Shown one piece after another: positions 3,392 to 24,860 of a stretch of 51,770 bases of DNA; positions within the stretch are counted from its first letter, which is position 1, and each line of letters starts with the position of its first letter. The position numbers and the translations under genes are program-made. Location of the stretch: contig JBNGIO010002463.1 of assembly GCA_049999805.1 (NCBI GenBank), positions 1 through 51,770 on the forward strand. The letters are read 5' to 3'. A model generated the notes under the pieces. The model ran no database searches and had not been told where the DNA came from. It saw nothing but the letters and a program-made list of their open reading frames with translations. The stretch comes from Folioceros fuciformis (taxonomy: Eukaryota).

Positions 3392-4679
3392 TCAATGCAT
3401 GCCATCTTCTTCATCGTCGTCCTCGCCTGCCAACAGTCTTGGATTTATCTCATCACCACGATCTATCCAAATGTTGTACAGTAACACACACGCATAACTC
3501 AATGCATTGAAGTAGTTGATGTTGCCTCGCCACACTTTCCTACCTAGTATCCGCCAGACCTTTTTCAGTGCTCCGAAAGCGTCCTCAATGACCATATGAG
3601 AAGAGGATAGCTTGAAGTTAAAAGACTCTTTATCTGCCATCAAACCTCGACCAGGAAAAGGGATGATCAACCATGGAAGCAAGGGGTAGCCAGCATCTCC
3701 GATGATATACTCTCGCACTTCCTCGTTATCCATGAGCATGGATGGTTCATTCAACCGTGCACCTGCATTGACTTGGTGATAGAAATATGAGTTGTATAGA
3801 ATTCTCGTATCATTTGCAGGTCCTTGCCAACCTGTTACTACATCTAAGAACTTCTTATTAGGGCCTACGATACCTTGCATTGCGATTGTGAAATCTTTGT
3901 ATCTTCCTCGATACTCCCATTGGTTTTCTCCTACAAGTAGTTCTAGCCGGAAATGGGTCACATCGATGGCACCATAACAGTTCATGAAGCCATGTCGTTC
4001 AAAGAATCCTGCCTTCACTTCCTCCAATTGACTAGCTAATGGCCAGGCAAGGTGATGCCTAGCCTTCTGTATGATTGCTTTGACAAAAACGGTGAGTAAT
4101 TGTGCAGGCAGTTGATTGTCCCACTCCAAAGCTTTCACCTAAAGAGACAAAGCTATCACATGTGGCCAGTCTCCTTAAGGCAATGACAACCTATTTCTGC
4201 ACAGAGATAATTCTCCCAGGGATGTTCACAAATCCAGGAACTGGAGTCGGGTCAAGAACGTCATGAACTAGATTGCAGATGTACGTAAAGGTTGCCCATG
4301 GGAATCAATAGAAACAGGCAAACCTCTTTGGATCCTCTTGTGCCACTTGAAGGTATAAAGTCCACATGCCCTGCATGTGGGGTTTCACATAGTACGTTGA
4401 TAATTGAATGCCTGTTAGAAATCCCCTTGGTAATTGTCCTATGCGGGCTACAATTGCAAGAGCAGCCTCCAATTGTTGACATGACAGAACAGTGTTATCA
4501 AGAGCATCATCTAGAAGTCTTTGGTCATCCATGCTCACAGATCTTAAAGATAGCCCGCAATCGGTGATGGCAGCATCACTACTCCCCTCAAAGTAATTCA
4601 GTAAATAAAACAAGTCTCGAACTGCACTTAGTGTAGCAAGGGCTATGCCGTAGACGACCATTTGCTCCACATTGGCCAT
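3392..4679 (-). pseudogene. PIF/Harbinger (HARBI1-like, DDE_Tnp_4) transposase, N-terminal part disrupted
   Basis: Motifs GAIDVTH, IIGDAGYPL and FNFKLSSSHMVIEDAFGALKKVWRIL in ORF 3392-4138. Likely N-terminal remnant at 4305-4679. Confidence 0.9.
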
Positions 4680-7210: not shown

Positions 7211-9524
7211 ACAATGTTGGAGTAGTTTACCATCTGCCGCATTCTGGCTGCGATCTCACATTGCAGGCAGTGGAATGCGTGGATGTCCGGAGTCTTGGTG
7301 TGCCTGGATAAGTGAATCCGCTTCGTTCAAGAGAGCTTGTTGAACGTTTGTTGTCACATTGTTTGCTGTTTGTCATCTTTGCTGAACGTGTCTCAGTGTT
7401 TGCTGTTCCCCTCAGTTCGGTTCAATTCTCTTCTTGTAATCGATTTCTGCTTCGATTGCTGCTGCACTCTCGCAAATCTGCTCCTGTCGCCTGTTCGAGC
7501 TCGCTGTACGAACTCTGCAAATTGCAGATCATGATCGACACCCCTTTCGAAACACAAACTTCTTTCACGAACCACACAACCTCTGCAAGCTGTTCTCCTT
7601 TGGAGAAACCGAGACCGAGGCAGCCACAGCCTTGCCGTCCTCAGTCCTCCACCGATAAGCAAAGAACTATCGGGAATCGGATTCGAACCCCGTGCCATCG
7701 TGGCAAGAGGCCGGAACCGACGCCGTTCGACCCGACCACATGGGGCCGTCCTCGTACCGGACAAAATCACCTGGCGTGCGCGCCGTCCTGTATCCGTTGT
7801 GTCCGATTAGGTGACCGACAGCGTCGACGTCACAGCTGGGTAGCAGAACCGCAGCTGCTCCCTGTTGCCGCAACTGCCTAGTGCTGCGTTGATAAGTCAA
7901 GCGGAACTAGCCACAACACTTCTAAACCCACGCCTGACACAAGTTCATCACGATCCCACTCCGACCGAGTCCAGCCGGTCCCGCAACACACGGTGTTAAG
8001 AGCAGGCTGTCATTTTGACCGAGTACTATCTCAGTCCACGGGATCCTACCTACTCACTGCTCTCACCAGCCCTAGGGGCCTTGCGCCACATCACTGTCCA
8101 GACGTGGGACTGACCAACCGTCCCTTTGGGAATTTCCGGCCACATCGGCACTGGCCAGTTTTATTGACCTGCCAGGCAGATGGATTAATTGTCTATCCAC
8201 CATCTCTTTCCAGCATAGAGATTAGCTCCTGCAACTTTCCACTAACGCTGATGCTACGTTTTTTCTGATTCGAAATTAACTTATTTTAGGTTAGTACACC
8301 ATTTGACTATGAGTTAATATATCTACTGACTAGAGGTCAGTAAACTAATTTTTGGAATTGAATGATGAGTCCAAGGAATTGAAGGATTGTTAAATGGGAT
8401 GGCCGAGAGACAATTGTTGTGGGAACTATTGGAGGTGGTTGTTGGTAGAATAAATATGATTGTGTGGGGATAGGGCATATTGACAGTGGGCCAGTGGAAA
8501 GAGAAAACTAAGAAAGCAACCTCTCTCTACAGCTGTGTCCACAACATCTAAGAAGATTAGCCAACATTCGCTACCTTAGAATAGTTTTATAGTTTCAAGA
8601 TCCTTGTGGTAGTAGGCTCAATTGGTGGTATGGCTCACTCATTAATACTAATGGTCGGTAATAATACATTAATTTAGTGAATTATTAAAGTAGTAATTAT
8701 CCTACAAGAGAGAGAGGTTAGATAGGAGAAACAAGGGCTCCTCTAAGGTGGAATGAATTTGTAGGATTCACCTTGGCATGTCGCACTTGGCTATTCTGGT
8801 CTATCCTTGATTGCTCTTGCGCAAGTAGTGGTGCCGGCTATGTGTGTGCACAATTCTTGGTGGGATGGGGAGTGTGGTGTGGTGGCCAGGATTGAGGGGT
8901 TTACATTTCCTCTTGATTGTAAAGGGTGCATCTTTTTCTTGACCTGTTCGCTCTTGTTTCTGGATGGTTGAGTAGGGACTTGGTGCCGGCCATGTCACGT
9001 GGTGTCTAGTAAGGTTGAGGGGTGGAGGTATCCGAGGGGGAGTGTGTTTCCCTCTTCATCTTTCTTAGGGTTAGCCTAGTTAGGAGGCTCTTGCCCAATG
9101 GGGGGAGTTAGTAGGACGAGTAGTGTGAGGAGTGTAGTTGGTTGCCGAAGGAAAAGCACCAAGAATAGGGTCTGCGCCTAACGGTCGTATTCCATGAAGC
9201 TCGTTTGGTGCACTTTTAAATTTACACCATCCTAGGCACATATCCATCTTTAAGCTGGTTTTAAAAAGCCGTATTGTTTGGACGTGTGTTGGACATAACC
9301 CATAATCATAAATAACTAAAACACCACATGCGTACTGAAACATGAAGTAGAAGACTGAAAATTTTTCGACAAAAATCCAAATCGCCCTAGACCGGCGCAC
9401 GAAACAGTGTGTTTCACTAAAATCAATCTGGCTATGTGCATGCTCTGAATAAAAAACCTTTAGCAGTCAAATTTAAATAAAGGCATATTGTACCACAAAC
9501 TGCAAGCACTTTCAATCTACTTCT

Positions 9525-12500
9525 TTAGATCAAGTCATGGACGTCCTGGATGGCCTCAGAATCGACAACTATCTCTACATCTCTAAGACGTTGGCCCTCT
9601 GTGTCGCCGAAGTCGTCTCCTTCCACCTCCAGTACCGAGAAATGTGGATCGTCCACTGTCTGAGGTGGAAGCGTGCCATTCTCATCCCAAATAGTCAGCG
9701 CATACAGGTCTTCAGCTGGTCGGTCGTCTGAGTGCGTAATAACTTCACCTTTCTTTCCCAGCGGACTGTAAACCTGCATCTGTCGATCCACGCTACCGTC
9801 TGCGCATACTTCCTTGGCCCAAAACTTTGTGGGCCCATGAGAGAAGGGGCCTGTGCTGATCTCTTCATCAGCGTCTGGCAAAGATCCAAGGCCATTCACT
9901 CTCTGCATCATGTAAGTCGTGCATCGTATATCGACGTCCATCGCGACTACATGCCTCCCTCTCTGAATAGCAGCTTGAAGGAATGATCCGGATCCTGCAC
10001 AGGCATCCACTACCCAGTTCCCTTCAATCGAAAACATGTTCACTAGCATCCCCATAAGCCCCAACGGCTTCTGGTATGGGGAGATGACCATCGAATCTGC
10101 CGAGTGAAAAAGGTGCTTTTTCACAACAGCACCATGCCTTATCACTCTCGGCAGTAGAAAACCCTGATTCGCGAATAAGGCTGCTTTGGTGGTCTGAGCT
10201 TCCAAGTGGACTGCACTGCCAACTGTTAGGTACTCAACAGTCTCCACTACCCCTGCATTCGGCGGAATATTCGTCTTTTCCCAAACCATTGTCTATATAG
10301 TGCCTTTCTTGCACCACGGCCTAAGTGCCTCTCTCGCTTGTGAGATCAAGTCAACTCCATGCATAAGCACCACTCGATAAACATTGCTAGTCTTGCATTC
10401 CAAAAACCCCTTGATCATATCTTCAAGTTCCTCGTTAGTCAACTGCCTGTCGTAATCATGTCGTTGAAGCCCACGAGGCAAATCAGCGAACAATAGGGTA
10501 TAGGGTCTCTTTACTAAAAAACCACTCATCTCGAGAACGCTTCGCTGTATCACTTGATACTTGGTTTTTTGGTTGCTATTGGACACTTTGAACTCTGACA
10601 ACCCAGCATCCATGTCAGCGTCCGCTAGCTTCTGCTTCTCCTCTTCTAACCGTTTCCAGTTCCGTGCTGAGTACATGTAATCCTGGAACGGCTTGGGCAA
10701 CGATTCCAGGTCGTTTATATCTGCAAGTTTCCGCCAACAAATACATTCGTTAGCAAACTATGTAGCATTCATTCTTCAAAATGGTTAGACTGCGCCGTTG
10801 CCTTGGTCAATAGCAGGAGTGCGCCGGTCGACCGGCGCACTCTAGCCCATATGAACGGCAGAGGCCAAGCGCAGGCTGGAGTGCGCTGGTCTACCGGCGC
10901 ACTCCAGCCACACGCTACGTGCAAGCAGCCATTCAAGCTGGAGTGCACCGGTAGACGGGCGCACTCCAGCCACACACTGCCTCCAAGCAGCCACTCAGGC
11001 TGGAGTGCGTCGATAGACCGGCGCACTCCAGCCACTAACCAAGCCAATCCGGTGAGTGTCCAAGGTTAGTCGAGATTGAAGAAGGAAATAAAAGGAAACT
11101 TACCACTTTCGCGAAAGCCGTCTAGAATCGAAGAAGATTCGCGTCATCGGTGTGCTTGGGGTAGATCTGTTCGGCTTCTTCGAAGGTCGTGCACTTCAAC
11201 ACTATGCGGAATGCGTGCTGTATCAGATGCATCTTCTTCCTCTTGCCCACCTCTGCGTCCATATCCTTTAGCTGGAGCTTCCCCTGTATGACCTTCTGCG
11301 TCACTGTGATCAGCATTTCTTCTCCTTTTGCCCCTGCTGGAACCCCTTGAAATGCCCTCCAAGGCCTGCCCTACATTGTCGTTACCTTCTTGGTGGACTC
11401 GTCAGCGACCGGAGTGCTACTGGAAGCTATGCCAGCTTCCTCTGGCTTCCTCTTCGCTTTCGCCCGCTTCTTTGTGCCTATGCTCCCTCCTGCTACCTGT
11501 TCCGAAAGCTCGCTCCTCTCCCACATCTTGAAGATCCTGTCCACGTTCTCCCACAGGACTCTACTGCACCTTGCCACGCGATATGGCAGTGTCTGTCTAT
11601 CCACCATCTTCTGGACCCAGTCAGTATCCCTTGGGTCACCTGCCTCATCAGTCATCCCCAACAACCTGTACAGATTGAATTTCCACTTCATTGGTGGCTT
11701 CTCGTCCAGGCCGTGGCTCCTTTAGAAAATATCCAACTCGTCATGGATATATCTTACTTGTTCGATGAAGCCCATCCTCTTCCATTTGTCGACAAACACA
11801 TTGTGATCAACAGCGAGGACTCGCATTTCCTCATCCGTGAGGCCTGCATAAACATGCCCTTCCATCCACTCGTACTTGTCTTCTCCTGGGTACATCTGAT
11901 GCAGCTTCTGCATAGCTGCGAAGTAGTGGTTGCCCCTGCGCTGGTACCCCTGCACTGTTATCTTCTCGAGCGAAACATCCTCCTTCTTGGAAGCCTGTTT
12001 CGGATCAATCATGCATAGGAGAGGTAAAATACCTTCCTTCACAGACCCTGTCTGCATCTGCCTGACCAGGCACTTTGTCCAAACTTCGTCAACCTCACGA
12101 ATCTGGGCATCTGCTGTGATATAGCTTGCAGGGTGGAGGATATCCACATGAAGATCGAACGTGGTCGACCTGATCCTTTTTGCATGGGCTCTTCTACGAC
12201 CAGCGTTGAGGTAGTCCTCATCCTGCGCAACCCTATCCATTCTCTCAGCATCGGTCTCAACTGTTCGGGGCAGCTCATCCTCGAAAGTAGGCCCTTTAGC
12301 CTACCGCCTCTGCTTCCGCCTCGCAGAAACCTCGTTGGCAGGCCCTACCGACCTGCTCTTCCTCTTCTGCGGTGAAGCTGCAATGACACCACAACAATTG
12401 TTGCAACAGATATTCATGACAAGAATCCAGACAGTAAGGAAACCAGACCCGACCACATTGCAGACCGATTAGCAAGATACCCACCTGTGGCTCTTTTTCG

Positions 12501-12768
12501 AGACCTCACAGGAGAGGTCGTGGCCATCTTCTTCTTCTTCATGACTGGGGCACCGGTAGGCCGGCGCACCGTCTTCTGCTTCTTTCTGGGGGGCGTGACC
12601 TCCACCGGCGATTCCTCCTCTTCTTCCCGGTCAGGCTGTGAGCCTCTTCCACCTTCCATGGCTGTCTTCTGTCGAGGAGTAACCTCCCATCTCCTTCTCC
12701 TCATCTGAGCTCAGCTCCTCAACCACCCGCAACTCCTCTTCAGACAGTTCTAGTTGCAGGCGTGGCAT
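9525..12768 (-). pseudogene. ParB/Srx-like domain + beta-class amino (N6-adenine/N4-cytosine) DNA methyltransferase, multi-exon, with in-frame stops
   Basis: Acidic/basic N-terminus with PPRKKQK and KKKK. ParB-like segment IREVDEVWTKCLVRQM...PLL...GNHYFAA...VYAGLTDEE..LAVDHN. MTase motifs in beta order: LLFADLPRG (IV), MVWEK, SPYQKPLGLM (X), VVDACAGSGS (I), GRHVVAMDVD. Introns at about 12372-12484 and 10722-11103 (phase of the second not resolved). Start ATG uncertain. Confidence 0.8.
10817..11033. repeat. Array of 4 GC-rich palindromes (GGCTGGAGTGCGCCGGTNNACCGGCGCACTCCAGCC-like), ~60-bp period, intronic
   Basis: Copies at 10817-10842 (perfect 26-bp palindrome), 10874-10909, 10937-10970 and 10998-11033. 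Confidence 0.9.
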
Positions 12769-13050
12769 CTCCACTTGCTTCCTTGTCACCCTTCCTGCGC
12801 TGGCAGTAAAATCTGCGATTGTCGCAATTCGCTGGCGCTCCCCGGCGATCCTGGATGCAAGCGCGCGGTTCTTGAGGACGCAATTGGCACAAAATCGCAA
12901 GACAATTCGGCAGAACTGTTCGCCTCCCTGTTACACCCACAACAAGCCAGTAATTAGGGTTAGGGTTTGCTCGGGTATTTAGCCAAAACGAATAAGCAAC
13001 ATCATGATGGATAATAAACTGCTGGGTTAATAAACAGAAAAAAAAAATGA

Positions 13051-13812
13051 TTAAGCTAAGCATATACTAACATCTTGCACACTCAGAAAATCTTTCAAAG
13101 CCGTTTTTAGCCACATCGGTTCACATTGCCGTGGCACAGCTTTCGCAACATTCACCACAATTAGGCTGTGGCTATTGTAGTCATCGGTGATATGGCTTGG
13201 TGGGTGCCGCGTGCAAATGAAATTGACGTGTGTTTCGTCTTCCACGCCATCAACGGATGCACAGAGAATCCACCCAGGCCTCCCTGCCTCATTGTTCGGC
13301 AGGCCTTGGAAACCGTTAATCCATAGAGCCATGAGCGGCACCCACGGCAAACTGTAGTCTTCTGGCTCCTCTTCGATTACTAAAAACCACTCTTTGTCTG
13401 TGTTGAACCTTTCAGCAAGCATGTCTTCAAGTTTCTTTAGCTTCAAGCGCTCAACGAAGTTGTACGCATTTGGAATATTGTGGTTCTCACTACCACCAGT
13501 GCTACCACCCTGAGTCACATTTACAGGCACCTGGTTAACATGAACCTCGCTAGCTTTGCTATTCGAGGCACGAACGCTTCCTCCTGAATTGTCTTTCCTC
13601 AATGCAAGAGCTGTTGGCTAAGGTGTAACATCTCCTACTGTGATCGATGGTCGCCGTTGGTTCTCTCTCTCGATGATGGGGTCAGATGCAGCGCGAGCTA
13701 AGACTTTCACCCCCTGTCTTGGTTTCCTTGGCCGTGATGGTGCCTCCAATACTTCCAGATCAATAGCTGCATTCAGATGCTTGTTGCTTCGCCAGCCTGC
13801 TGCCTTTTTTGC
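13051..13812 (-). pseudogene. Third transposon-internal ORF, unknown function
   Basis: The 183-aa ORF 13051-13602 extends upstream in frame through a TAG at 13618-13620 to an AG acceptor near 13812. Possible GTTAGT donor near 13071. No recognised motif. Confidence 0.5.
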
Positions 13813-14426
13813 CTACGCGAGAGGAAGCGAATGAGAAAACTTCAAATGACCAGAGCTGATGTAGAAGCAGTCAGCAACGACTAAAGCTTTGAACGAAAAG
13901 ATTTGAAGTCAACTGTGAAGTTGAATGTGTGTTGCCTGAAATAGGAAGCGTGTTTGAGCAACGTCTTCTGCATTTATGTTAGAACAACGATTAAAGGCGC
14001 CGTTCCCGATAAACAACAGCTACTTGTTTTAGTGATCAAACGTTCATATCGAAAAGGCGGCTTAATTATGTCAGCGTAACCTGTATTCAATGAATCGGTG
14101 AGTGACGGTAGAATGCATCCTGCAAGGAAGCTCCTTTGCGGTTAATCAGTGCGACATTGGCATGGATTGGCAGGCTTCTTCCTCAGGCGACATGGTGCCT
14201 ACGAAAGCATCGGAGTTCATTTCTCAAGGTAGGCCATGACTTCGGTTGAAGACGGGCTTTCGTTTGTTGAAGTTGATTAGTCTGATCTTCGCTGTTCCCG
14301 TCTTGCTGCTTTGTTCCCGATGATTCTGAAGGAATCGACATCGACTTCTGATAGTCTCCTGTACGTCTGAGTCTTCTCGATGGCATCCATACGCCGGCAA
14401 GCCCTTTGCGAAGCCAGTATCCTTTC

Positions 14427-17400
14427 ATGCCAGCGACCATGAAAACAACACCTCTGAAGCAGAATGTAGATCGCACAATCTTGCGCGGGGACTTTGCTGA
14501 TTCGGATGCAGAAGGAATTGCGAGTGGACATGGGGTACCAGGAGAATCGACCCGAGAGCGCTTCCAGCTCGAAGCCGAAGCAGGGGATGTCTTGGCCGTA
14601 GACGCGGTAAGGACGACGGGCACATCGTCGCGAAAAACATACAATCTAAAACCATCATCCGAGTCCTTGATTGAAGTTCCTGGAGATCATCGACGTAGTC
14701 GGAAGAAAAAAATCTCGACTGTACCTGAGGAAAAGTGTTTTGAGATCCGCATTTCTGCAAATTACCGGAGACTATGTTGTGCAAAGCAGTGTCTCAGATC
14801 CTTAGGCAAACCAGGCTTTCGGGATTTGAGATATCGATTTCTAAACTTGTGCAGGACAGAGCAAGAAATGTATTTGCAGACCCTGTTTGATGTCAAGCGC
14901 GCTTCGGATGGACGCTCAATCGTGGTGGCTTTTCTCATTGGATCTGTAAAGATACGTTGTTGTCGGGACGCGTTCAGACGAGTTTTCTGCATCGGTGCGA
15001 ACAGGTACGAGGCAGCAAAAGAAAGAGCTTTGGATAACATTATGTGGGTGGGCTCTGTCCACGCAGAAAAGCGCACCTGGGATCACGCTATGGCTGCTTG
15101 TGTTTGGATGGATCAATTGTTCTGCCTCCTTGCAGAACGCATGCCAAACATTGAAGTGTACCATCTTCCCGACTCATATACAAAAGGGGAAATTTTTAGG
15201 GAGTACAAGCAGCAAATGCAACGAGCGGAACAGTACATTGTGTCTCACTCTTATTTCTGTTAATTGTGGGCTTCACATTTCTACAAGGTGTGAATTCCAA
15301 AGACAAACAAGTTTTCGCTCTGTACAACCTGCGATTACCTGAAAAGGAACATCAGAGCCGAGTCTGATAAGAAGAAACAAGGTACGGTAGCGTGTTTTTT
15401 CAGTTACGTTTCACGTAGGCATATGAAGTGCGCTGGTCGACCGGCGCACTGCATTCCATCATTCCCTGGTAAGTGCACCGGTTGACCGGCGCACTTTTTC
15501 TTCCCAATGATGTTGTAAGTGCGCTGGTAGACTGGCGCCCTGCCCTTGTTTCGAACCCTTCAGTTGTCATGGTGATTGCGCATTGCTGGGTGTGCGCCAG
15601 TCTACTGGCGCAAACCTTCCTCTCCTACTCAAGAAATGAAGGGATTGGCTGCTTTGTGGCGGGTGTGCGCCGATCTACCAGCGCACACCTGTCTCTCCTA
15701 CTCAAGAAATGAAGGGACTGACTGCTTTGTGGCGGGTGTGCGCCGGTAGACCGGCGCACACCCACCAGGTCGCACACTTTTTCCATATTCCAATGTAAAG
15801 TATTTGATGTTTTTTGTAGAGGGCTTTGAATCTGACTTGAAGCTCCATCGAAATAGACTGAAGGCAGAGCTCGAGAAGAGTATAAAACGTCGGGTCAAAT
15901 GTTATGGCGACCCCGGAAAGTACATTGGAATATCAGTGGATGGAATGGATCAACAGAAGACTCACTTGCCCCATTTCGTACGAGTGCCCAAAGATTTAGC
16001 GGATGATGATGGCCTCATTGATGTCCATGTAGTAGGGTGTATGGTATACAACAAGACTTTGACACCAAAGCTCTTCATCGAGTTCGGCAACACTCGAAAT
16101 GATGCGAACTTAACAATATCAATTATTCAGCGCGTGATTCACGAGTATGAAGGCTTGCTACCTGGAGTACTTTATTTGCAGCTAGACAACACGGCACGCG
16201 AGAACAAAAACGCGTTGTTGTTTTCTTATTTGAATATGTTAGTGGAAAAGCGGGTTTTCTTGAAGATAAAAGTCGGATTCCTGCTAGTAGGGCATACGCA
16301 TGACCAGGTTGATCAGATGTTTTCCAGGTTTTCAACAGCACTCGGTCGGAAAGAAGCTTTGACTTTACCAAAATTGATTGCACTTATGCAGGGCGCTTAT
16401 ACCCCCGTGCCAGATGTTGAAGAGGTGAAGGAGGTTCCAGACTTCAGAAAGTTTGTTTGGCCTATACCCTATGGGAAAGCAGGATATCAGAGTGTTGCAG
16501 TGGTTCATCACCTGCATAATATATCGTTTCAACACCAGTTCAAGATCACAAAAGAGAGTCGCGGAGATCGTGGACCTGTTACAGTTATGAGAGGAAAACA
16601 GTATTCCACTGATCAATACTGGTCGCCTGATGAAGGGATAGAACTCCTGAAAGCAGTTCCGGAGAGGAATATGAAAGCCGCTCCACAGATGCATCTGCAG
16701 GTGAGGAGTAGGAAACAAAAGAGTATTATACACGATGTCCCAGGATATAATCTGTGCTAGATTCAATCAAGATTGGAGTTCAAATTACGTCAGCACTTAG
16801 GTGTGGGTGAAGACATCTGGTGGGATTCATTTTGGGCCGAGCAAGAGGCCATCGTTCAAATTATTAATTCGGGTGTAGAGCAAGACCATGACTGGCCATG
16901 GCCATGGTATAATCGCGATGAGGCAAAGTTGGTAAACACCCCGTTACTCGTGCCAGATGCTTTGGTGTTGGAAAACCCACAAATACGAGAAGTTCCTAGA
17001 AGAGATATGTATGTGGGGCCATATAGAAAAGACGCACACGTTGGGAACGATGTTGACAGCTTCAGTGGAGATGTATCAGAGATCGAAGTAGGGCACATGA
17101 TTGCTGTCCCATGCGAGACAAACGTAGACAACAAGCCTTTTTGGATCGCGAAAGTGCCGGACACACAGAAGGAAAATGACACTCAAAATATCACAATCCA
17201 TTGGTGGGTCACGAAATGTTCAGATGCATTTGAAGGCCGTTATCAAGAGGAGATGATATTGCCGAATGAAGACCCAGCCATGGGTTCTACACGACGACGT
17301 AAGGACGGCCAAGCAGAAGACTTCGGAAACATATTGACACAATATCTGTCACGAACACTTTTATTTTTGCGTATGGATTTGAGTTGACTCGTCAAAAACA

Positions 17401-17500
17401 ACTGCACGCTCGCACTCGAAATCTTATCAGAAAGAACTTGTACATGCTTAGGCAAGATCAAGAAAACCATGTACATAAACTTGATGACGACCTCGCATGA
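14427..17500 (+). pseudogene. DDE (RNase H-fold) transposase of Sola1/DUF7869-like type, 2 exons, with stops and a frameshift
   Basis: Cys-rich N-terminus (CCAKQC, CCRDAF, FSLCTTC) and core ISVDGMDQQK...LYLQLDNTARENKN...FLLVGHTHDQVDQMFSRFS. A phase-1 intron 15382-15819 (G|GTACGG...TTTGTAG|AG) restores the frame. C-terminus ...IFAYGFELTRQKQL...DDDLA* follows a frameshift near 17300. Confidence 0.85.
15427..15762. repeat. Array of 6 palindromes GTGCGCCGGTMGACCGGCGCAC inside the transposase intron
   Basis: Copies near 15428, 15471, 15517, 15589, 15662 and 15735. The last three sit in a ~74-bp tandem unit that contains CTACTCAAGAAATGAAGGGA. Confidence 0.9.
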
Positions 17501-18829
17501 CTACTTGATGAAATGTAGACTATATTGGTTAAGTACTTTCATGTATTCCACACTTTATATATATGAACACTGTTGGCAAAGAGCTGTGGTTGGCTATTCA
17601 TAAGCACCCTTGTGGGGGTGCGCATAGAGAAAGGCTATCTCGCCCTAACTGTGCGTTGGCCTAACCCTAACTCATTTTGAATAGTTTTGATGCACTTTCC
17701 CTAGACCCGATCTGAGTGTTCACCCGCTACTCATTGCTTCATCGGAAGGAGTGCGCCGGTAGACCAGCGCACACCTACCGTCCAGGGTTAAATGAATGTT
17801 ATTGAAAAAGCTTTAACATTTTACAGTTTCAAGTAATTCTAATTTCAAAAAAATATCATTCCGTCTACATGCAGGCGGTAGTGTCAGACCAACCGTGGAA
17901 TTGGATAAGATCAAAAAGTTTTATTGTTGGTAACCCGCTAGATTCTAGGTAAACATGACGATTAAAAAGTTTTTCGTGACCGTTTTTCCATAGATTTGGG
18001 GGTAATCCACACCAAATAGCATGATTTCTGGATATATGCCACGGAAAATGACGCCGAAAATGACCCGAAGCCCGATTTGGCAGAATACGACCGTTAGGCA
18101 CAGACCGTGTTCAAGGGGTATTGGACAAACAGTTTGTCCTTTGCTTGATAGGGGTTGGAGGGGAGCCCTCGAATTCGTCACAACAGTGTGTGAGTTGTAC
18201 AAGTGATAAGGAGGTATGTCTTGGTGATAGAGCATAGTCTTTGGAAGATGCTCTTGAGATATGGCAGACTGTCCTAGGTTGTTGATGTGAGGATTGACTG
18301 TGAGAAGCATTTGATGCGGCATCGGTTTGTGAATTTTGTCTATAGGTTGGTAGGGAAGTTGACCCAACTATCTGTCTAACTGGCTGTGACATAGGGACCA
18401 AGGACAGGATAAGGAGTTGAGGTAGCAAGAAAGGTAGACCCTCTATCCATCCATCCAAGAGAAAGGGAGGTTGTCGTTCCTTCGTGGGAATCAAACCCAA
18501 CGTCTCGACGACAATGGGATAAGTGTGGTCACTAGAAGGAGCCCAAGGCCCCCCTCCTGGACGGTGAGGTGCCCGAGATTTTGCAACCACAAGGACGAAG
18601 CCAAGGTCAAGTCCAGGGAAGGAGGAGGCAAGTCAAGGACCAATAACATGGAAGGCATAGCAGCTTATAAAAGCCTAGCCTACTAGGGGTAGTTGAAATC
18701 TGTATTTGCATACTTGTGTGCCATCTTGTTTTAAAAGTGTGCCCGGTACCAGGCCCACATATGTCCAATATTCTGTGAAGAATATTGTATGCCCTTTCTA
18801 TAAAGGCCTATATCCTTTAATGCTAACAC

Positions 18830-19112
18830 TTTCTGCTATGGAGTTCTAAGCCTGTGCCACGTGGCTACAGGTGCTGGCTGACTAATCACAGTACATTATG
18901 TGCATTGACAACCAGACCTGTTTGATCCTCACCTGTCTCTTCACCGGCCAAGAACTTCAAGAAACGATTTATACCTGGCGGTGCTGTGTTGGGATGCAGG
19001 CTTTGGATAAGCTAGTGCGTTTCGGGAAGGCGGGCTTCCACGAGTTCCATTGCTAGTCGATGACAGCCATGTAGTATGGTTTTCTTTTCACTCATTTGAG
19101 CGGAATATCTCA
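18830..19112 (+). pseudogene. Degraded inverted copy of CDC6 3' exons and intron
   Basis: TCTGCTATGGAGTTCT..GGTGCTGGCTGAC, ACCAGACCTGTTTGATC, GCCAAGAACTTCAAGAAACGATT and GTGCTGTGTTGGGATGCAGGCTTTGG..AAGCTAG.TGCGTTTCGGGAAG all match the reverse complement of 33745-33990. Confidence 0.8.
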
Positions 19113-21238
19113 GAATATCCACGAAATATTCTATCAGATTCCGAGATTCTATGCGTCCCAAATCGAACGCATCCCGTGGGTGGCTCTGCCAAAACCGCCG
19201 ACGCACCACAGCGAACACGGGTGCATGTTGATTCTTTCTTCGCTGCGTCCGGGGCCAAGAAAGAAAGTACAGGCACTAGGCCAGGCTCGGAAAGATATTA
19301 TTTCTTCAAGGCCAGGAAGTAGTGGGAAGAGAGAGTGGAGGGTACATGTATTCGGGATCCAGACTTCGTGAGTGTAGCGTTTTGTCTCTATACGACGACC
19401 TGGTTCTATCAACTTGAATTCTCCCACCGCTTGCACCGCCAGTTGCTCTCATTGGCACCAGAAGGCGGTGATCTGACAGTAGTGGTTCTGGTGATCTGAC
19501 AGTTGATGACATCAGGAGGCGGTCATGTATTTCTATGTTATATTGCAGGAATTCTCTTGGTGGAGGTGCGAATGCAGCCACTTCCACCGTAGAGAATTGC
19601 AATGAAGGGGTGGCTGCTAGGTCTGCTCTCTCGCCGAATTCATACCGTCCCAGGCCTCCAAAACCCGATCCAAGCCATTGGTAGTAACGGCAATATGTAT
19701 CATTGTTGCCAGTGCCCCTACTGCTGCAGCAGCTACTCGCATGTCCAGAGAGGCTATCAAAGTAGCGACGTGACAAGTGACGATCATGAAATATGATCTT
19801 GCAATGCTTGCACGTTCAGCATTTTCATTTTTGGAACAACGAAGGGTTTGGAGTGGCCCCTACGTACAGGGTACGCCCGCGTGCATCACGCTCCGACGCA
19901 CAGCGGCTTGCTCCACTTGCCATCATGCTCAGAATGCCAGATGGATGGGCGGACACACGCTGTTGATCCTGCGTAGGGATAAGACAAGAGGATGCTGTAG
20001 TTTTCTTGATCCTCGACTGACCCTCTGTTATGGGGAGCACAGTACGGATAGATGAATTCTTGTTAGGAACCATCATGTCATAAGGCATTACTTTGCCACA
20101 GTGGCTTGCGTGTACAAGTGTAGGTCGGAGCCACAGATTCCGAGGCTCCAATCCCAACCTGAAGTCAATACATTCAACGTTCAACCTATCAGGATATTCA
20201 TTACCAGCCTGAAACGACACCCAGTGCACAATCAGCAAGACAAGAAGACGAGGAAGTTCACGCTACCCACCTAGCTCTTAAGACAACTGGCATCATCATC
20301 CTGTCCAGGGTAAGCGGTTTCCCGTTTCCTAAGCAGCCACTGGCACACAAACAGGCCAGATTTTGACAGGCAGTCGCTTGGCTGGCAAAATTAGATCTAC
20401 AGACGTCAGGGCTGGGAATTACACCCGTCGTCAGGGCAGGTGACCTAGAACACGTTGTCTCCCAGTCTTGAATACAGTACCCCGGACGTTGCGGGTCAAA
20501 CTCACAGCTCGCTGCCACCTGCAATCGGAAGCTCGCTTGCTGGCTTCCCATTGCTGACCTTGGCATGCAATTATCCATCAACCGGATACGACTTGAATGT
20601 GCCTTCAAGATGGACGAGAGCAACCTAGGTTCTGACGCTGCTGCGGAAACGGCTACTGGTCGCTGCCTCCATTCTGTTTCAAGCCCCCCACGTACAGTGC
20701 TCTGCTACTACACTCTTCTATCTGGCAAGCGGGGTTCACGCGTTGTCTACAGGAGGAGTACAGTTCTCCTAAATAAAGCTGTTGCGGCTGCTGGTGTTGG
20801 TCCAGTGGGTGAGATCTCCCTGTGGTCAGCATTAAGTTTCAGATCAAAATCCCAGGGGCTGTTTCCGAGCATGCCTCGACCGGTCTTACAACCCCGGTGG
20901 CGGAGATGTCGGAATTGTAGTTCCATCTTCTTGGCTTCTTGCAATCCATATACTGTGCAGTAAAGTATAGGGCCGCGACAAAGCGGAATGTGAGGTGTGG
21001 TGACAGGAGCGCGCTTGGCGGACGGCCATGAAAGCATGATCTTCTGTTTTGGCCAGCGCACGCGTCACAAAGCCCAGCATGCTCCTCAAGTTCCTTTTGA
21101 CACCGTGTGTTGCGGGACCGACTGGACTCGTGGGAGTGGGATCGTGATATCTCAAATGTGGGTGTTTTCAGGCGTGGTGTTACAAACCTTGAGGCTTGAG
21201 GGCGCTTCAAGCGTACCGGAAACAGAATAAGAAGTAGC

Positions 21239-21284: not shown

Positions 21285-21894
21285 AATAGGCAGCCGTAGG
21301 AAAGATCTGTTGTTCCAAATTCCACCATGTGTGTTCGTGTACGACGAGAGACTTGCAGCAACTGTGAGATCTGGTGCTGCTGCTCCATTCTTCAATGATA
21401 GCCGACCACTCTGTCGTGAAAGAACGCAAAGGCTCCTTCAGAGGAGGATTAGGTCAGATTGTTCAGAGGTGGACAGCGATCTGTTATCATAACAGATCTC
21501 TGCCCAGCTCTGACCATCTGATATAATGTCAGAGCTGGAAACAAGACTAGTTGCCTGTTGCGGTGAAGGACTGCACTGACAGAAGCCCTCCTTGCGCACA
21601 GGAAGTGAAACAGTGTAGTACAGTTTGATGCAAGAATTGAGATAAGCTGAATCAGATTAACTGGCACACTCTGTTACAAACAGATCAGCCGCCAACCGCT
21701 GTGACGGCGATGCTTTCATGCATACATACAATTCAGACCCACCCAACACTGTGACAAGACCGTTCAACAAGCTCTCTTGAACGAGACAAAGTCACTTATG
21801 CAGACACACAAAGACTCAGGACGCACGCAATCCACTGCCTGCAATGTGAGATCGCAGCCAGACTACGGCGGATGGTAAACTTCTACAGCATTGC

Positions 21895-24057
21895 TCAGGG
21901 CTTCTTATGGTAGTACTTGGGGACGCACTCGCCCTTGGAGCAGTACTTCCCGGCGGGGCAAACGTTGCCACAGGAGCCGCAGTTGTTGTTGTCATTGGAG
22001 CAGTCGAGGCAGCTTCCCTTGCAGCAAAGCGATCCCTTGGCGCAGGTCTTCCCACAGGCGCCACAGTTGTACTCGTCGTCGTAGAAGCTCACGCACTTGC
22101 CTCCGCAGCACGAGTAACCAGCCCCGCACTTGTTGCCGCACGACCCGCAGTTGTAGGCGTCGTCCACGAAGCTCACGCATTTGCCGCTGCAGCAGGACTT
22201 GCCGGCCCCGCACTTGTTCCCGCACGCGCCGCAGTTGTAAGCGTCGCTGGAGGTGGACAGACATTTCCCGCTGCAGCAGCTCTGCCCGGCCGCGCACTTA
22301 TTGCCGCACGACCCGCAGTTGTAGACGTCAGAAGCGAAGCTCACGCATTTCCCCCCGCAGCAGTAGGTTCCCGCAGCGCACTTGTTCCCGCACGAGCCGC
22401 AGTTGTAGTTGTCCGAGCCGGTGGAGATGCACTTGCCGCTGCAGCAACTCTGGCCAGCTGCGCACTTGTTGCCGCACGACCCGCAGTTATAGGCATCGGA
22501 AGCGAAGCTCACGCACTTCCCACCACAGCAGTAAGTCCCCGCAGCGCATTTGTTCCCGCACGAGCCGCAGTTGTAGCTGTCCGAGCCGGTGGAGATGCAC
22601 TTGCCGCTGCAGCACGACTGCCCGGACGCGCACTTGTTGCCGCACGACCCGCAGTTGTAGACATCATAAGCGAAGCTCACGCACTTCCCGCCGCAGCAGT
22701 AAGTCCCCGCAGGACACTTCTTCCCGCAGGACCCGCAGTTGTAGGTGTCGGAACTGGTGGAGATGCACTTCCCGCCGCAGCAGGTCTGGCCGGCCGCACA
22801 CTTGATGCCGCACGACCCGCAGTTGTAAGCATCGCTGGAGGTGGAGATGCACTTCCCGCCGCAGCAAGACTGGCCCGCCGCGCACTTGTTGCCACAGCTG
22901 CCGCAGTTGTACACATCAGACGCAAAGCTAATGCACTTCCCACCGCAGCAGTACGTCCCGGCCGGGCACTTGTACCCGCATGTCCCGCAGTTGTAGGAAT
23001 CGGACACCGTGTCGGCGCACTTCCCACTGCAGCAAGTCTGCCCAGTGCCGCACTTGTTACCACACGCCCCACAGTTGTACTCGTCATCAGCAAAGCTCAC
23101 GCACTTCCCTCCGCAGCAGTAGGTTCCAGCCGGGCACTTGTACCCGCACTTCCCGCAGTTGTAAGAATCCGACATTGTCTTGATGCATTTGCCGCTGCAG
23201 CACGATTCCCCGGCACCGCACTTGTTCCCGCAAGACCCGCAGTTGTTCACATCCGACGCAAAGCTGATGCACTTGCCTCCACAGCAGTAGGTCCCGGCCG
23301 GGCACTTGTACCCGCATGTCCCGCAGTTGTAGGAGTCCGACAGCGTGCTGGTGCACTTCCCGCCGCAGCAAGACTGGCCAGCAGCGCACTTGTTCCCACA
23401 CGCCCCACAATTGTATACATCAGACGCAAAACTGACGCACTTCCCCCCACAGCAGTAGGTTCCGGCGGGGCACTTGTTCCCGCACTTCCCGCAGTTGTAG
23501 GAATCCGACACCGTCTTGATGCATTTCCCGCCGCAGCACGACTCCCCAGCACCGCACTTGTTCCCGCACGATCCACAATTATACACATCATCAGCGAAGC
23601 TGATGCACTTCCCCCCGCAGCAGTACGTCCCGGCGGGGCACTTGTACCCACACTTCCCGCAGTTATACGAGTCCGACACCGTGTTGGCGCACTTCCCGCC
23701 GCAGCAAGACTCCCCGGCCGTGCATTTGGCGCCGCACTTGCCGCAGTTCTTGACGTCAGAGCTGGTATCGGAACAGGCACCGTAGCAGCACTGGGATCCC
23801 TTGGCGCAGACGTTCTTGCAGGCCCCACAGTTATAGAGGTCCGCCAAGGTGTCGACGCACTTGCCGCTGCAGCAGGTCTGCTTGATCTTGTCGCAGTACG
23901 CCGTCACCTTGGGGGTGCAGTAGTCGTAGCCTTTGTGGTAGCCGCCTCCCCGTTTGTGCCCTCCCGATCCTTTGTAGTGGCCGCCATCACCGAATGCCGC
24001 TGGAACAGCGAGCAGCACCACCAGAGCCAACAGCAGCTGCGCTTTCTTTATGGTCAT
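21895..24057 (-). CDS. Secreted STIG1-like Cys-rich tandem-repeat protein, copy 3 (720 aa, intronless, ~23 repeats)
   Basis: Signal peptide MTIKKAQLLLALVVLLAVPAAFG, a G/H/Y-rich linker, then 23 NCGxC-containing 28-aa units with 6 Cys each. TATAAAG lies at 24204-24210 on the - strand. Confidence 0.92.
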   Translation of the reverse strand: MTIKKAQLLLALVVLLAVPAAFGDGGHYKGSGGHKRGGGYHKGYDYCTPKVTAYCDKIKQTCCSGKCVDTLADLYNCGACKNVCAKGSQCCYGACSDTSSDVKNCGKCGAKCTAGESCCGGKCANTVSDSYNCGKCGYKCPAGTYCCGGKCISFADDVYNCGSCGNKCGAGESCCGGKCIKTVSDSYNCGKCGNKCPAGTYCCGGKCVSFASDVYNCGACGNKCAAGQSCCGGKCTSTLSDSYNCGTCGYKCPAGTYCCGGKCISFASDVNNCGSCGNKCGAGESCCSGKCIKTMSDSYNCGKCGYKCPAGTYCCGGKCVSFADDEYNCGACGNKCGTGQTCCSGKCADTVSDSYNCGTCGYKCPAGTYCCGGKCISFASDVYNCGSCGNKCAAGQSCCGGKCISTSSDAYNCGSCGIKCAAGQTCCGGKCISTSSDTYNCGSCGKKCPAGTYCCGGKCVSFAYDVYNCGSCGNKCASGQSCCSGKCISTGSDSYNCGSCGNKCAAGTYCCGGKCVSFASDAYNCGSCGNKCAAGQSCCSGKCISTGSDNYNCGSCGNKCAAGTYCCGGKCVSFASDVYNCGSCGNKCAAGQSCCSGKCLSTSSDAYNCGACGNKCGAGKSCCSGKCVSFVDDAYNCGSCGNKCGAGYSCCGGKCVSFYDDEYNCGACGKTCAKGSLCCKGSCLDCSNDNNNCGSCGNVCPAGKYCSKGECVPKYYHKKP

Positions 24058-24860
24058 GGCTCCCTCCGCGCCCTCGCCCGCAAGATACGCTCGATCGACG
24101 ACTCGATAGATGTGTCTCTAAATCACGACGATGATCGATCTCTGCTGCGGGCAGGCGGAGTACGTGGTGAGTCGGGACTGCATTGGCTTGCTGGCTGCTC
24201 ACTCTTTATACCCGTCTAGCCGGGTGACCGGTTCCTACCGGCGTGGCCCTTCGCCAGCCCGATAGGTCCTCGGGTACAGCGCGCCTGTGCAGGATAAGTG
24301 GTACAATTGGCGGTAAGTGTTGACGGGGTAAAGATAGGCTTGTGGCCTGGCTTATCGTGCCAGGTGATCCGCACTAGCTTCCAACCAGCTCTAACTGTGT
24401 GTGTGCCGACATAGCTACTCTTCTTCCATCGTCGGATAAGGTGGTGACGTAACCAACACCCAGCCATTTGACAATTTCCACGCACCCCGTTCACAAACGT
24501 ACTGTATACCACCGATCACCAAAATGAACTGTCAATCACCCACAATCGCAGCTGGCCATGGGTTGTGAGGTCGACGAGTTGCCGCCAACTCTGACAGCTT
24601 TTGCTAGGCTAGCTTTGCCAAGGAAAAAGCCTCTCAGATAAGGACGCAAACATATTGTATTGTTGTACACTGGAGTGATCAAAATGCTTCTACCCAATGG
24701 CAACCTCCCTCTGTCACCCATCCGATCGAGAAACACTCCTGGACCAGTGCTCTGTGCAAGAAACAGTGATCGACCGCCAGGGTGTGTTCTTGACTGATTC
24801 TTGTCCCAAGCAAGTTGGCGCACGCGGACACCTGTCCGGGCATATGCTAGCTGTTCCAAA

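What the first reader, a model, noticed from the sequence alone, without database searches (positions are those of the whole stretch)
9164..18111. Complete TIR transposon packaging a DDE transposase with a prokaryote-type amino-DNA-methyltransferase gene
Seen in the sequence: 29-bp TIRs (26/29), an exact 4-bp TSD (CAAG), a two-exon DDE transposase on +, and divergently a ParB-like/MTase gene and a third ORF on -. Known: 4-bp TSDs and DN..NKN / GH(T/S)..D motifs fit Sola1-like transposases. Amino-MTases are rare, horizontally acquired genes in eukaryotes (Marchantia DN4MT1, bdelloid N4CMT, DIRS-borne MTases). Inference: this is a cut-and-paste element family that carries its own 6mA/4mC writer, possibly for self-marking, anti-silencing or control of transposition, and may be a route for such enzymes into land-plant genomes. 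I am not aware of this combination being described, but I could not search.
Basis: partly seen in the sequence, partly recalled or inferred. Interest (0 to 1): 0.9.

Follow-up and report, generated by a model that had tools for sequence, protein, structure and literature searches.

The report
Plant transposon carrying ParB-methyltransferase gene
This is a real but mutationally dead copy of a multi-copy cut-and-paste transposon in a land-plant genome that carries, next to its transposase, a gene for a bacterial-style DNA-binding and DNA-methyltransferase fusion protein; the same pairing was already published for a brown alga, so it is a new member of a known kind.

Summary
There are 29-bp TIRs (26/29) and a CAAG duplication. 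The + strand carries a two-exon DUF7869 DDE-type transposase. The - strand carries a divergent gene for a ParB/sulfiredoxin-fold domain fused to a beta-class N6/N4 amino-methyltransferase.

The cargo is not a one-off capture. Contigs of the host's DNA runs cover the whole element, including the MTase part, at multi-copy depth. Two complete TIR-bounded relatives in metagenome contigs (L006, L013) carry the same two genes in the same divergent order.

- **Prior publication.** Dinatale et al. 2025 describe the Ectocarpus Sola1-1_Ec32 element with a ParB + DNA-MTase gene opposite its transposase.
- **This copy is dead.** It has 3 premature stops in the transposase and 5 in the ParB-MTase gene.
- **Doubtful catalysis.** Motif IV reads DLPRG here, against DIPYG or DPPY in relatives.

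One addition: arrays of a 22-bp palindrome lie only inside the element. Analogous arrays sit beside the ParB-MTase gene in 12 of 26 related loci. They are candidate parS-like sites for self-targeting.

Sola1 membership is likely but was not tested against reference transposases. The two duplications seen do not fit the reported AWWT preference. Interest is modest.

The parts
9160..9163 (.). Left target-site duplication CAAG
   Evidence: Read directly; identical to 18112-18115
9164..9192 (+). Left terminal inverted repeat (29 bp)
   Evidence: (pair I12); 26/29 complementary to the right TIR
9525..10720 (-). Last exon of the ParB-MTase gene: beta-class amino-MTase domain. Motif IV is DLPRG; QKP and motif I (DACAGSGS) are present. 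In-frame TAG at 10295-10293; natural stop at 9527-9525.
   Evidence: Pfam PF01555 E 1.2e-7; 161 homologues, the best spanning the TAG; alignment A1; tblastn
10721..11103 (-). Approximate intron of the ParB-MTase gene. The GTAAGT donor at 11103 and the AG acceptor at 10722-10721 disagree in phase (0 versus 1). This may be a further lesion or a mis-set splice site.
10812..11035 (.). Palindrome array 1: 3.6 units of 62 bp, each holding the 22-bp palindrome GTGCGCCGGT-nn-ACCGGCGCAC
11104..12380 (-). Exon with the basic N-terminal stretch, the ParB/Srx-like domain (about 12189-11725) and the linker region. In-frame stops at 12303-01, 11724-22, 11373-71 and 11124-22. The 5' limit is approximate.
   Evidence: tblastn of P0012 residues 97-497 in one frame; alignment A2; AF2 model and Foldseek hits to sulfiredoxin, Noc, PadC and ParB
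13051..13617 (-). Third open frame (188 aa). It has no relatives. It could be a further 5' exon of the ParB-MTase gene, a lineage-specific gene, or non-coding.
   Evidence: no hit. The region is multi-copy.
14427..15381 (+). Transposase exon 1, with premature TAA at 15261-63 and TGA at 15291-93
   Evidence: Every X1 and X2 contig laid at 15261 reads C, giving CAA; in X3 only part of the depth does.
15382..15819 (+). Transposase intron (GT..AG, phase 1)
   Evidence: absent in the intronless relative L006
15428..15760 (.). Palindrome array 2: six copies of the same 22-bp palindrome, including 2.4 units of 73 bp, inside the transposase intron
15820..17387 (+). Transposase exon 2 with the DUF7869 catalytic core (about 16014-16568). 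Motifs are DGMDQ, LDNTARENKN and GHTHDQVD. Premature TAG at 16758-60.
   Evidence: Pfam E 5e-50; 38% identity to the intact L013 transposase over 506 aa
17751..17772 (.). Single copy of the 22-bp palindrome near the right end
18083..18111 (-). Right terminal inverted repeat. Its outer end reads AACACG, as in L006; L013 has AACACC.
18112..18115 (.). Right target-site duplication CAAG

Best explanation
The stretch 9164-18111 is one decayed copy of a multi-copy DDE/D cut-and-paste DNA transposon family in a land-plant genome. The family has a DUF7869-type transposase and is most likely Sola1-like.

Its ancestral gene set has two divergently transcribed genes. One is the transposase. The other is an accessory protein made of a ParB/sulfiredoxin-fold N-terminal domain, a conserved linker and a beta-class N6-adenine/N4-cytosine DNA methyltransferase domain.

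Inferred mechanism: the ParB-like domain recognises the arrays of 22-bp palindromes that lie only inside the element, much as ParB or KorB recognises palindromic parS or operator sites. This brings the methyltransferase domain to the element's own DNA. The result would be to mark that DNA or to regulate the element's own promoters and transposition.

This copy makes neither protein, because it has 3 and 5 premature stops. It could move only in trans.

Shown: the anatomy, the repeated family, the conserved gene pairing and the palindrome arrays. Inferred: binding, methylation and its purpose.
For: - **Ends.** TIRs and TSD are present.
- **Transposase.** DUF7869 at E 5e-50; 38-47% identity to intact transposases in L013, L006 and L019 and 40-46% to Riccia and Ceratopteris proteins.
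- **MTase class.** The MTase region has 161 homologues at E<=1e-3 and 28 at E<=1e-10. The family profile hits the beta-class adenine MTases DpnA-type, CcrM, RsrI and MboIIA at 2e-15 to 2e-14. N4C enzymes score weaker, at 2e-7 to 8e-6.
- **ParB fold.** The top Foldseek PDB hits are all ParB/Srx-fold proteins: sulfiredoxin 3.8e-3, then Noc, PadC and ParB. The profile's best PDB match is sulfiredoxin at the GGSH motif, although E is only 1.
- **Repeated family.** 1964 (X1) and 1790 (X2) contig pieces were laid on 8000-19500, at every level of likeness. Summed depth on every bin of the element (99-827 in X1) exceeds the flank bins taken as least repeated, about 35-68. The MTase part shows 4-8 variant contigs per listed site.
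- **Conserved pairing.** Of the 80 metagenome loci encoding a ParB-MTase relative, 4 also hold a DUF7869 transposase. L006 and L013 are complete elements with both genes divergent inside 33-37-nt TIRs.
- **Shared termini.** L006 has a 4-bp TSD, TGTT. TIR outer ends read AACAC in 5 of 6 termini.
- **Palindromes in the window.** There are 12 sites within 3 mismatches, all between 10819 and 17772, against 0 in 100 shuffles. None of this class lies in the other 42.8 kb.
- **Palindromes in relatives.** Analogous 23-bp palindrome arrays (TCGAT-type) occur in 12 of 26 related loci, 35 sites in all, mostly just upstream of the ParB-MTase gene. All palindromes total 67 against 21.7 in shuffles.
- **Literature.** Passages in PMC12477816 and in preprint 10.1101/2025.02.11.637652 propose the same self-binding and self-modifying idea for algal elements.
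Against: - **Motif IV.** It is DLPRG in this copy and in its three nearest relatives (P0002-4). The other relatives have DIPYG, DIPHG, DPPYG or SPPYG. The aromatic residue expected there is missing, so methyl transfer may be lost in this subclade.
- **ParB assignment.** It rests on a moderate model (pLDDT 65.8) and modest Foldseek E-values. Pfam finds no ParBc domain in this protein or in the 8 MTase homologues scanned.
- **Transposase neighbour.** Only 3 of the 8 loci with at least 2.5 kb of flank on one side show the transposase. In 4 of the other 5 the long flank is on the 3' side and says little. L029 has 4.8 kb upstream with a short-chain dehydrogenase ORF and no transposase.
- **Gene order.** In L019 the transposase lies downstream on the same strand, so the order is not fixed.
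- **TSD in relatives.** L013 has no TSD: ATTG against GCCA.
- **Palindrome role.** In L011 palindromes lie on both sides of the gene. They could instead be transposase-binding sites.
- **No functional data.** No binding, methylation or expression data exist here.
Confidence: 0.6

Rival explanations
1. In this subclade the accessory protein no longer methylates DNA. It acts as a sequence-specific DNA-binding factor. It could be a KorB-like repressor of the element's promoters, or a tethering or assembly factor for transposition, with the MTase fold kept only for SAM or DNA binding.
For: Motif IV is DLPRG in the window copy and in P0002, P0003 and P0004, which are only 34-44% identical to it. 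The change is therefore conserved and not a private mutation. Of 31 related loci, 22 have DIPYG, 4 DIPHG and 2 DPPYG. Motif I and QKP are kept. Palindromes lie between or within the two genes. A passage in PMC4738411 states that DIRS1-borne MTase domains are likely inactive, which is a precedent.
Against: Only one catalytic-motif position is changed. Non-canonical motif IV variants can still be active, and no assay was done. Most of the wider family keeps an aromatic residue.
Confidence: 0.3
2. The MTase gene is a one-off capture or a nested insertion in this single copy. It is not part of the transposon family.
For: Summed contig depth is lower over 12224-12991 (99-123 in X1) than over the transposase (300-830). 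More variant contigs cover transposase sites (10-24) than MTase sites (4-8). Some copies may therefore lack part of the accessory gene.
Against: The MTase region is itself multi-copy. The same pairing lies inside the TIRs in L006 and L013, with a transposase 44-47% identical and a ParB-MTase about 26-28% identical. It is also published for Ectocarpus Sola1-1.
Confidence: 0.03
3. The palindrome arrays are unrelated to the ParB-like domain. They are transposase-binding subterminal or internal repeats, or a foldback/MITE-like repeat that colonised the introns.
For: One palindrome lies 340 bp from the right end (17751) and a half-site lies near the left end at 9385-9400. In L011 the arrays flank the gene on both sides. 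Contig joints link palindrome units across the element (tables 5 and 5c).
Against: In L006 and L013 the palindromes are central, between the two genes, and not subterminal. They accompany the ParB-MTase gene in 12 of 26 loci. ParB-family proteins classically bind palindromes (established knowledge). The same idea is published for Plavaka PAG3.
Confidence: 0.25
4. The element is not a Sola1 member. DUF7869 transposases would form a separate superfamily that merely shares a 4-bp TSD.
For: The reported Sola1 hallmark is an AWWT/AWDT target (passage in PMC3845634). The two TSDs seen here, CAAG and TGTT, do not fit. No comparison with reference Sola1 transposases was possible.
Against: Features that fit: a 4-bp TSD and a DDD/E-like core. 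The accessory gene in the same position matches the curated Ectocarpus Sola1-1 element. The broad eukaryotic spread of DUF7869 clusters (Arthropoda, Mollusca, Oomycota) resembles the reported Sola1 range.
Confidence: 0.2

Closest known systems
Sola1-1_Ec32 of Ectocarpus (Dinatale et al. 2025, PMC12477816; passages read)
   Same: It is a TIR DNA transposon classed as Sola-1. [quoted passage not shown] The authors propose that it binds and modifies its own element.
   Different: The Ectocarpus element is 21.5 kb with a 1104-aa protein. This one is 8.9 kb, sits in a land plant, is decayed, and has motif IV DLPRG. No sequence comparison was possible because the TE library is in supplements that were closed.
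Plavaka (CACTA-type) elements of the red alga Bostrychia with accessory genes PAG2 and PAG3 (preprint 10.1101/2025.02.11.637652; one passage read)
   Same: Accessory genes bring DNA-modifying domains. A ParB-like N-terminal domain and tandem arrays of inverted repeats next to the ParB gene are proposed as its binding sites.
   Different: The transposase superfamily is different. There, ParB is fused to a 2OG oxygenase, and the N6A-MTase is fused to a SET domain on a separate protein.
Bacterial, phage and plasmid ParB-fused or ParB-linked amino-MTases, and the ParB-family regulator KorB (recalled knowledge; the phage ParB-Tls loci are mentioned in PMC4738411)
   Same: The domain combination is the same: ParB/Srx fold plus a beta-class PF01555 MTase. 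Palindromic recognition sites are shared. The nearest solved MTases are bacterial: DpnA-type, CcrM, RsrI and MboIIA.
   Different: Here the gene is eukaryotic, with introns, inside a DDE transposon. Pfam ParBc is not detectable and motif IV is non-canonical.
Marchantia MpDN4MT1a/b (preprint 10.1101/2021.02.12.428880; passages read) and bdelloid N4CMT (recalled)
   Same: These are prokaryote-type amino-MTases working in eukaryotic nuclei.
   Different: They are host genes with a TSPPY motif and shown 4mC activity. The passages found by a search for 'ParB' gave no mention of that domain (0 occurrences). No sequence comparison was made here.
DIRS1-type retrotransposon MTase domains (passage in PMC4738411)
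   Same: It is an amino-MTase-like domain carried by a mobile element and is likely catalytically inactive.
   Different: It belongs to a different MTase group (PCIF1-derived). It is embedded in a retroelement polyprotein and has no ParB domain.

Membership tests
Pfam DUF7869 transposase family | Match to PF25273 above the gathering score | tested here: met
   170.1 bits against a cut-off of 26, E 5e-50. Relatives L013, L019, P0158 and P0160 also match.
Sola1 group of the Sola superfamily | Transposase homologous to reference (Repbase/Dfam) Sola1 transposases | not testable with these tools
   No reference Sola1 protein or profile was at hand. Bao et al. 2009 is not held. DUF7869 appears in 0 papers.
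Sola1 group of the Sola superfamily | 4-bp target-site duplication | tested here: met
   CAAG here and TGTT in L006. L013 shows none. That is 2 of 3 complete elements.
Sola1 group of the Sola superfamily | AWWT/AWDT target preference, called a hallmark in PMC3845634 citing Bao 2009 | tested here: not met
   Neither CAAG nor TGTT fits AWWT. With only two sites this is weak evidence.
Sola1 elements with a ParB-MTase accessory gene (Ectocarpus Sola1-1_Ec32 type) | ParB-like + DNA MTase gene on the strand opposite the transposase, inside the TIRs | tested here: met
   for the window; for L006 and L013; the description is.
Beta-class N6/N4 amino-MTase (PF01555) | Motif order IV ... QKP ... I, with an FxGxG-type SAM motif at the C-terminal end | tested here: met
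   DLPRG at residue 92, YQKP at 228 and DACAGSGS around 255 of P0001. Pfam gives 32.4 bits against 26.7, on profile positions 163-212 only.
Beta-class N6/N4 amino-MTase (PF01555) | Catalytic motif IV (D/N/S)PP(Y/F/W) | tested here: not met
   The motif is DLPRG. The first proline is replaced, as in most of this eukaryotic family (DIPYG). The aromatic residue is also replaced by Arg, which is seen only in this subclade.
ParB/Srx-fold N-terminal domain | Sequence match to Pfam ParBc | tested here: not met
   No Pfam family up to E 10 for the window ORF. None up to E 0.01 in the 8 MTase homologues scanned.
ParB/Srx-fold N-terminal domain | ParB/sulfiredoxin fold | tested here: inconclusive
   The AF2 model has pLDDT 65.8. 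The top Foldseek hits are all ParB/Srx proteins but E is 3.8e-3 to 0.1 and TM about 0.35-0.56. The profile hit to sulfiredoxin at the GGSH motif has E = 1.
Autonomous transposon | Uninterrupted transposase reading frame | tested here: not met
   There are three in-frame stops: 15261, 15291 and 16758.

The most novel reading that the evidence does not exclude
The ParB-MTase gene and its palindrome array form an ancient self-addressing epigenetic module of DUF7869/Sola1-type transposons across eukaryotes, land plants included. The element would write or read a non-5mC mark on its own DNA to control its transposition or to escape host silencing. Copies of this module would be the source from which host lineages domesticated amino-MTases. 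Examples could be the ParB-MTase-like 'hypothetical proteins' annotated in Chara, Ginkgo, ferns and Riccia, and conceivably enzymes like DN4MT1.
Probability: 0.12. Interest if true: 0.75.

Novelty: new member of a known kind. Interest (0 to 1): 0.35.

Why it matters
The finding extends a recently described kind of transposon, Sola1-type with a ParB + amino-MTase accessory gene, from brown algae to land plants. My literature searches found no report of it in land plants.

It also shows that the pairing is conserved in independent complete elements. Two testable details are added. First, palindrome arrays travel with the ParB-MTase gene and are its likely binding sites. Second, one plant subclade has lost the aromatic residue of the catalytic motif.

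Practically, several 'DNA methylase N-4/N-6 domain-containing' or 'hypothetical' proteins in Chara, Ginkgo, Adiantum and Riccia gene sets are relatives of this transposon-borne gene, so they may be transposon genes rather than host genes. This matters when 6mA or 4mC 'writers' are inferred from plant annotations.

Tried and rejected
- **Whole genome.** None is held for this window, so there was no census of copies, no consensus and no TSD logo.
- **RNA.** No RNA holder was listed by the look-up of sequencing runs. X4 is only guessed to be RNA and laid 7 pieces at the edges. Nothing can be said on expression.
- **Word-index protein searches.** The search for the MTase region at near length gave nothing; the exhaustive HMMER search then found 161 relatives. 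The same search for ORF3 gave nothing. ORF3 also had no tblastn hit in 80 loci and only sub-threshold Atlas scores of 0.78.
- **ParB region by sequence.** Pfam found nothing. phmmer against PDB gave only chance-looking hits to a designed repeat protein and others.
- **Rfam.** 0 families across the window.
- **Self-BLAST of the window.** No second copy of the element or of its immediate flanks.
- **Empty site in the window.** The contig joints 9123>18137, 9094>18158 and 8955>18478 look like copies of the flanking repeat without the element. They do not end at the TIR boundaries and the letters between are unknown, so they are not counted as empty sites.
- **L013.** No TSD.
- **Papers not held.** Bao et al. 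2009, Iyer et al. 2011 and the journal version of Petroll et al. 2025. These are known here only through citations in other papers.
- **Supplements.** They were closed, so the Ectocarpus TE library could not be compared.
- **Iyer et al. 2016 (PMC4738411).** Section 8 and passages were read. The ParB-fused clade it describes is a Dam/DpnM-type family in chlorophytes and chytrids. That is a different MTase group from the beta-class family here.
- **Earlier notes of this scan.** They held only prokaryotic ParB/MTase systems and none was used.
Full report
**1. Observation**

The inverted repeats are real. Positions 9164-9192 and 18083-18111 pair at 26 of 29 positions. Their 24-nt core occurs nowhere else in the window and in none of 100 shuffles. 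CAAG flanks both ends.

On the + strand, the frame 15750-16757 matches Pfam DUF7869 at E 5e-50.

On the - strand, the frame 9528-10292 matches the C-terminal part of PF01555 N6_N4_Mtase at E 1.2e-7.

The window comes from a land plant. It holds an 820-aa PLS-class PPR gene with an E motif.

**2. Gene models and state of this copy**

An intact 890-aa relative, the L013 transposase, aligns to the window in two blocks. Residues 99-302 cover 14736-15344 and residues 314-797 cover 15816-17303.

- A start codon lies at 14427.
- A GT donor follows 15381 and an AG acceptor ends at 15819.
- Both are in phase 1, so the join reads ...KKKQ-E-GFESD.
- In the intronless relative L006 the two blocks abut.

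The two-exon model is therefore sound. The frame nevertheless holds TAA at 15261, TGA at 15291 and TAG at 16758. At 15261 every X1 and X2 contig laid from the host's DNA runs reads C (CAA), so that stop is private to this copy or a minority of copies.

For the - strand gene, full-length homologues such as P0012 (789 aa) align in one frame over 12189-11044. After an intron of about 380 nt they align over 10700-9825. That reading crosses TAA at 11724-22 and TAG at 11373-71, 11124-22 and 10295-93. A further TAG at 12303-01 precedes it, inside the basic N-terminal stretch.

The best homologue, P0002, aligns straight across the TAG at residue 155. That TAG is therefore a nonsense change and not an intron edge.

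Six of the eight stops are TAG. Differences between copies are mostly transitions (table 1). I read this as ordinary C-to-T decay of a methylated repeat, which is an inference.

The copy is structurally complete but cannot encode either protein.

**3. What the accessory protein is**

The exhaustive search found 161 relatives at E<=1e-3, 28 at E<=1e-10 and 2 at E<=1e-30. Named relatives come from Chara braunii (three proteins), Ginkgo biloba, the fern Adiantum nelumboides (three proteins in two of the clusters looked up) and the liverwort Riccia sorocarpa. All are annotated as hypothetical or 'DNA methylase N-4/N-6 domain-containing'.

A profile of 20 family members (A1) hits solved beta-class adenine MTases at 2e-15 to 2e-14: DpnA-type, CcrM, RsrI and MboIIA. 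N4-cytosine enzymes score more weakly, at 2e-7 to 8e-6. 'Prokaryote-type amino-MTase' is therefore right.

Motif I and the QKP motif are intact. Motif IV is unusual.

- Among the 31 related loci whose match covers the motif (of the 71 loci the MTase query hit), it reads DIPYG in 22, DIPHG in 4 and DPPYG in 2.
- P0089 has SPPYG.
- The window copy and its three nearest relatives (P0002-4, 34-44% identical) have DLPRG.

Loss of the aromatic residue is thus conserved in this subclade, and it puts catalysis in doubt.

The N-terminal domain gives no Pfam match. An alignment with 15 metagenome relatives (A2) shows a conserved GG(S/N)H..A..L block. Its best PDB sequence match is the GGSH motif of sulfiredoxin, though E is only 1. 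An AlphaFold model (pLDDT 65.8) retrieves only ParB/Srx-fold proteins at the top: sulfiredoxin at 3.8e-3, then Noc, PadC and ParB. I take the ParB-like call as probable, not proven.

**4. Is the cargo integral to the transposon?**

Yes, on two lines of evidence.

*Host DNA runs.* Contigs of two DNA runs of the same organism cover the whole element at all degrees of likeness. The counts in X1 are 322, 466, 716 and 460 pieces at >=99, 95-99, 90-95 and <90%. Summed depth is above the flank bins taken as least repeated in every bin, including the MTase part. The tool warns that this depth is not a copy number. I use it only to say 'repeated'.

*Related loci.* A scan of metagenome contigs with A1 gave 591 pattern matches, 87 confirmed relatives and 80 loci kept. 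tblastn with the window's proteins found the DUF7869 transposase on 4 of the 80 loci.

- **L006:** 44% identical, on the opposite strand, head to head.
- **L013:** 47% identical, same arrangement.
- **L019:** 45% identical, downstream on the same strand.
- **L002:** a 31-aa fragment at the contig edge.

Most contigs are too short to judge. I selected 26 of the 80 loci as having long matches. Eight of them have at least 2.5 kb on one side, and three of these eight show the transposase. L029 has 4.8 kb upstream with a dehydrogenase ORF instead.

L013 and L006 are complete elements. L013 has 37-nt TIRs at 97% and L006 has 33-nt TIRs at 79%. L006 has a TGTT duplication. It sits inside a Ty3-type integrase frame. 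Its length plus one duplication is 7728 nt, a multiple of three that keeps that frame (and arithmetic). L013 shows no duplication.

The outer TIR bases read AACAC in five of six termini. The window's left end, AATAG, is the exception.

**5. Palindrome arrays**

A 22-bp palindrome, GTGCGCCGGT-nn-ACCGGCGCAC, occurs at 12 sites within three mismatches. All lie between 10819 and 17772, and none appeared in 100 shuffles.

- Four sites form a 62-bp-period array inside the ParB-MTase intron.
- Six sites lie in the transposase intron.
- One site lies 340 bp from the right end.
- The twelfth site (12548, three mismatches) lies in the N-terminal coding part of the ParB-MTase gene.
- None of this class lies in the other 42.8 kb.

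In the related loci a different 23-bp palindrome, of the type AATTCGATGCA-n-TGCATCGAATT, forms arrays in 12 of the 26 loci, 35 sites in all. Most lie just upstream of the ParB-MTase gene. In L006 and L013 they lie between the two divergent genes. All palindromes total 67 against 21.7 in shuffles.

ParB-family proteins bind palindromic sites. That is established knowledge, as is KorB's use of such sites as operators. The preprint on Bostrychia makes the same suggestion for arrays next to a ParB-oxygenase gene in Plavaka elements.

I therefore propose that these arrays are the address for the accessory protein. The rival reading is that they are transposase sites. It is not excluded, because L011 has arrays on both sides of the gene.

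**6. Comparison with what is known**

Passages in Dinatale et al. 2025 (PMC12477816) describe the 21.5-kb Sola1-1_Ec32 element of Ectocarpus. It carries, opposite the transposase, a 1104-aa protein with a ParB-like domain and a DNA MTase predicted to make 4mC or 6mA. [quoted passage not shown] They suggest that such proteins bind and modify their own element.

My searches found no report of it in land plants. A review table lists Sola1 in Physcomitrella without mention of cargo.

Sola1 membership of the DUF7869 transposase could not be tested against reference proteins.

- The 4-bp duplication fits.
- The reported AWWT target preference does not fit the two sites seen.
- Atlas clusters with DUF7869 come from arthropods, molluscs and oomycetes. 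Close relatives are abundant in Riccia and present in Ceratopteris.

**7. Verdict**

It is wrong about novelty and over-confident about enzymatic activity.

This is a dead copy of a known kind of element in a new host group. Two modest new leads came out of the work: the palindrome arrays and the DLPRG subclade. Still open are expression, activity, target base, the role of ORF3 (13617-13051) and any link to host enzymes such as DN4MT1.

Noticed in passing
window 8000-19500 as laid with run X3: Run X3, from the same sample as X1 and X2, shows a strong excess of C>T (300) and G>A (281) changes over all other kinds (14-79). It looks like a bisulfite- or enzymatically converted library. It could be mined for cytosine methylation over this element family.
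   Followed up: no
window 18368-18751 and 8768-9151: The sequences flanking the element are themselves high-copy repeats. Summed contig depth in X1 is 4125 and 438, against about 35-68 in the flank bins taken as least repeated. The element sits inside another repeat. Contig joints 9123>18137, 9094>18158 and 8955>18478 may be copies of that repeat without the insertion.
   Followed up: partly
window 10841-17774 (tables 5 and 5c): Several host contigs join one palindrome array to another, for example 10845>15738, 11027>15738 and 10841>17751. This hints at deletion derivatives or rearranged arrays in other copies, or at assembly jumps across the repeats.
   Followed up: no
window 3395-4138 (-): An open frame with PIF/Harbinger-type DDE_Tnp_4 (E 2.6e-22) and Plant_tran domains marks a second, unrelated DNA transposon upstream.
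   Followed up: no
window 30394-32853 (+), 44788-46662 (-), 37029-38231 (-): Three apparent host genes, each in a single open frame: an 820-aa PLS-class PPR protein with an E motif, a 625-aa poly(A) polymerase that may be intronless or a retrocopy, and a frame with a methyl-CpG-binding domain.
   Followed up: no
window 21850-24219, both strands: Long overlapping open frames on both strands (789 aa and 740 aa) lie in a GC-rich stretch (about 0.61-0.63). The + strand frame has no Pfam match; the - strand frame was not scanned. These are probably compositional open frames, but the region is unexplained.
   Followed up: no
L006 2-757 and 8360-8809 (-): The related element in L006 is inserted into a Ty3-type retrotransposon integrase frame (Integrase_H2C2, rve). 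Removing the element and one TGTT copy (7728 nt, a multiple of 3) would keep that frame open. This amounts to a natural empty-site check.
   Followed up: partly
L019 989-3063 and 4012-5964: In this relative the DUF7869 transposase lies downstream of the ParB-MTase gene on the same strand instead of head to head. Gene order in the family is therefore not fixed.
   Followed up: no
L001-L017 contig starts: Many metagenome contigs begin or break inside the palindrome arrays. These arrays probably fragment short-read assemblies and hide the neighbouring transposase gene.
   Followed up: no
window (whole): The window contains 10 N characters. Their position was not looked up.
   Followed up: no
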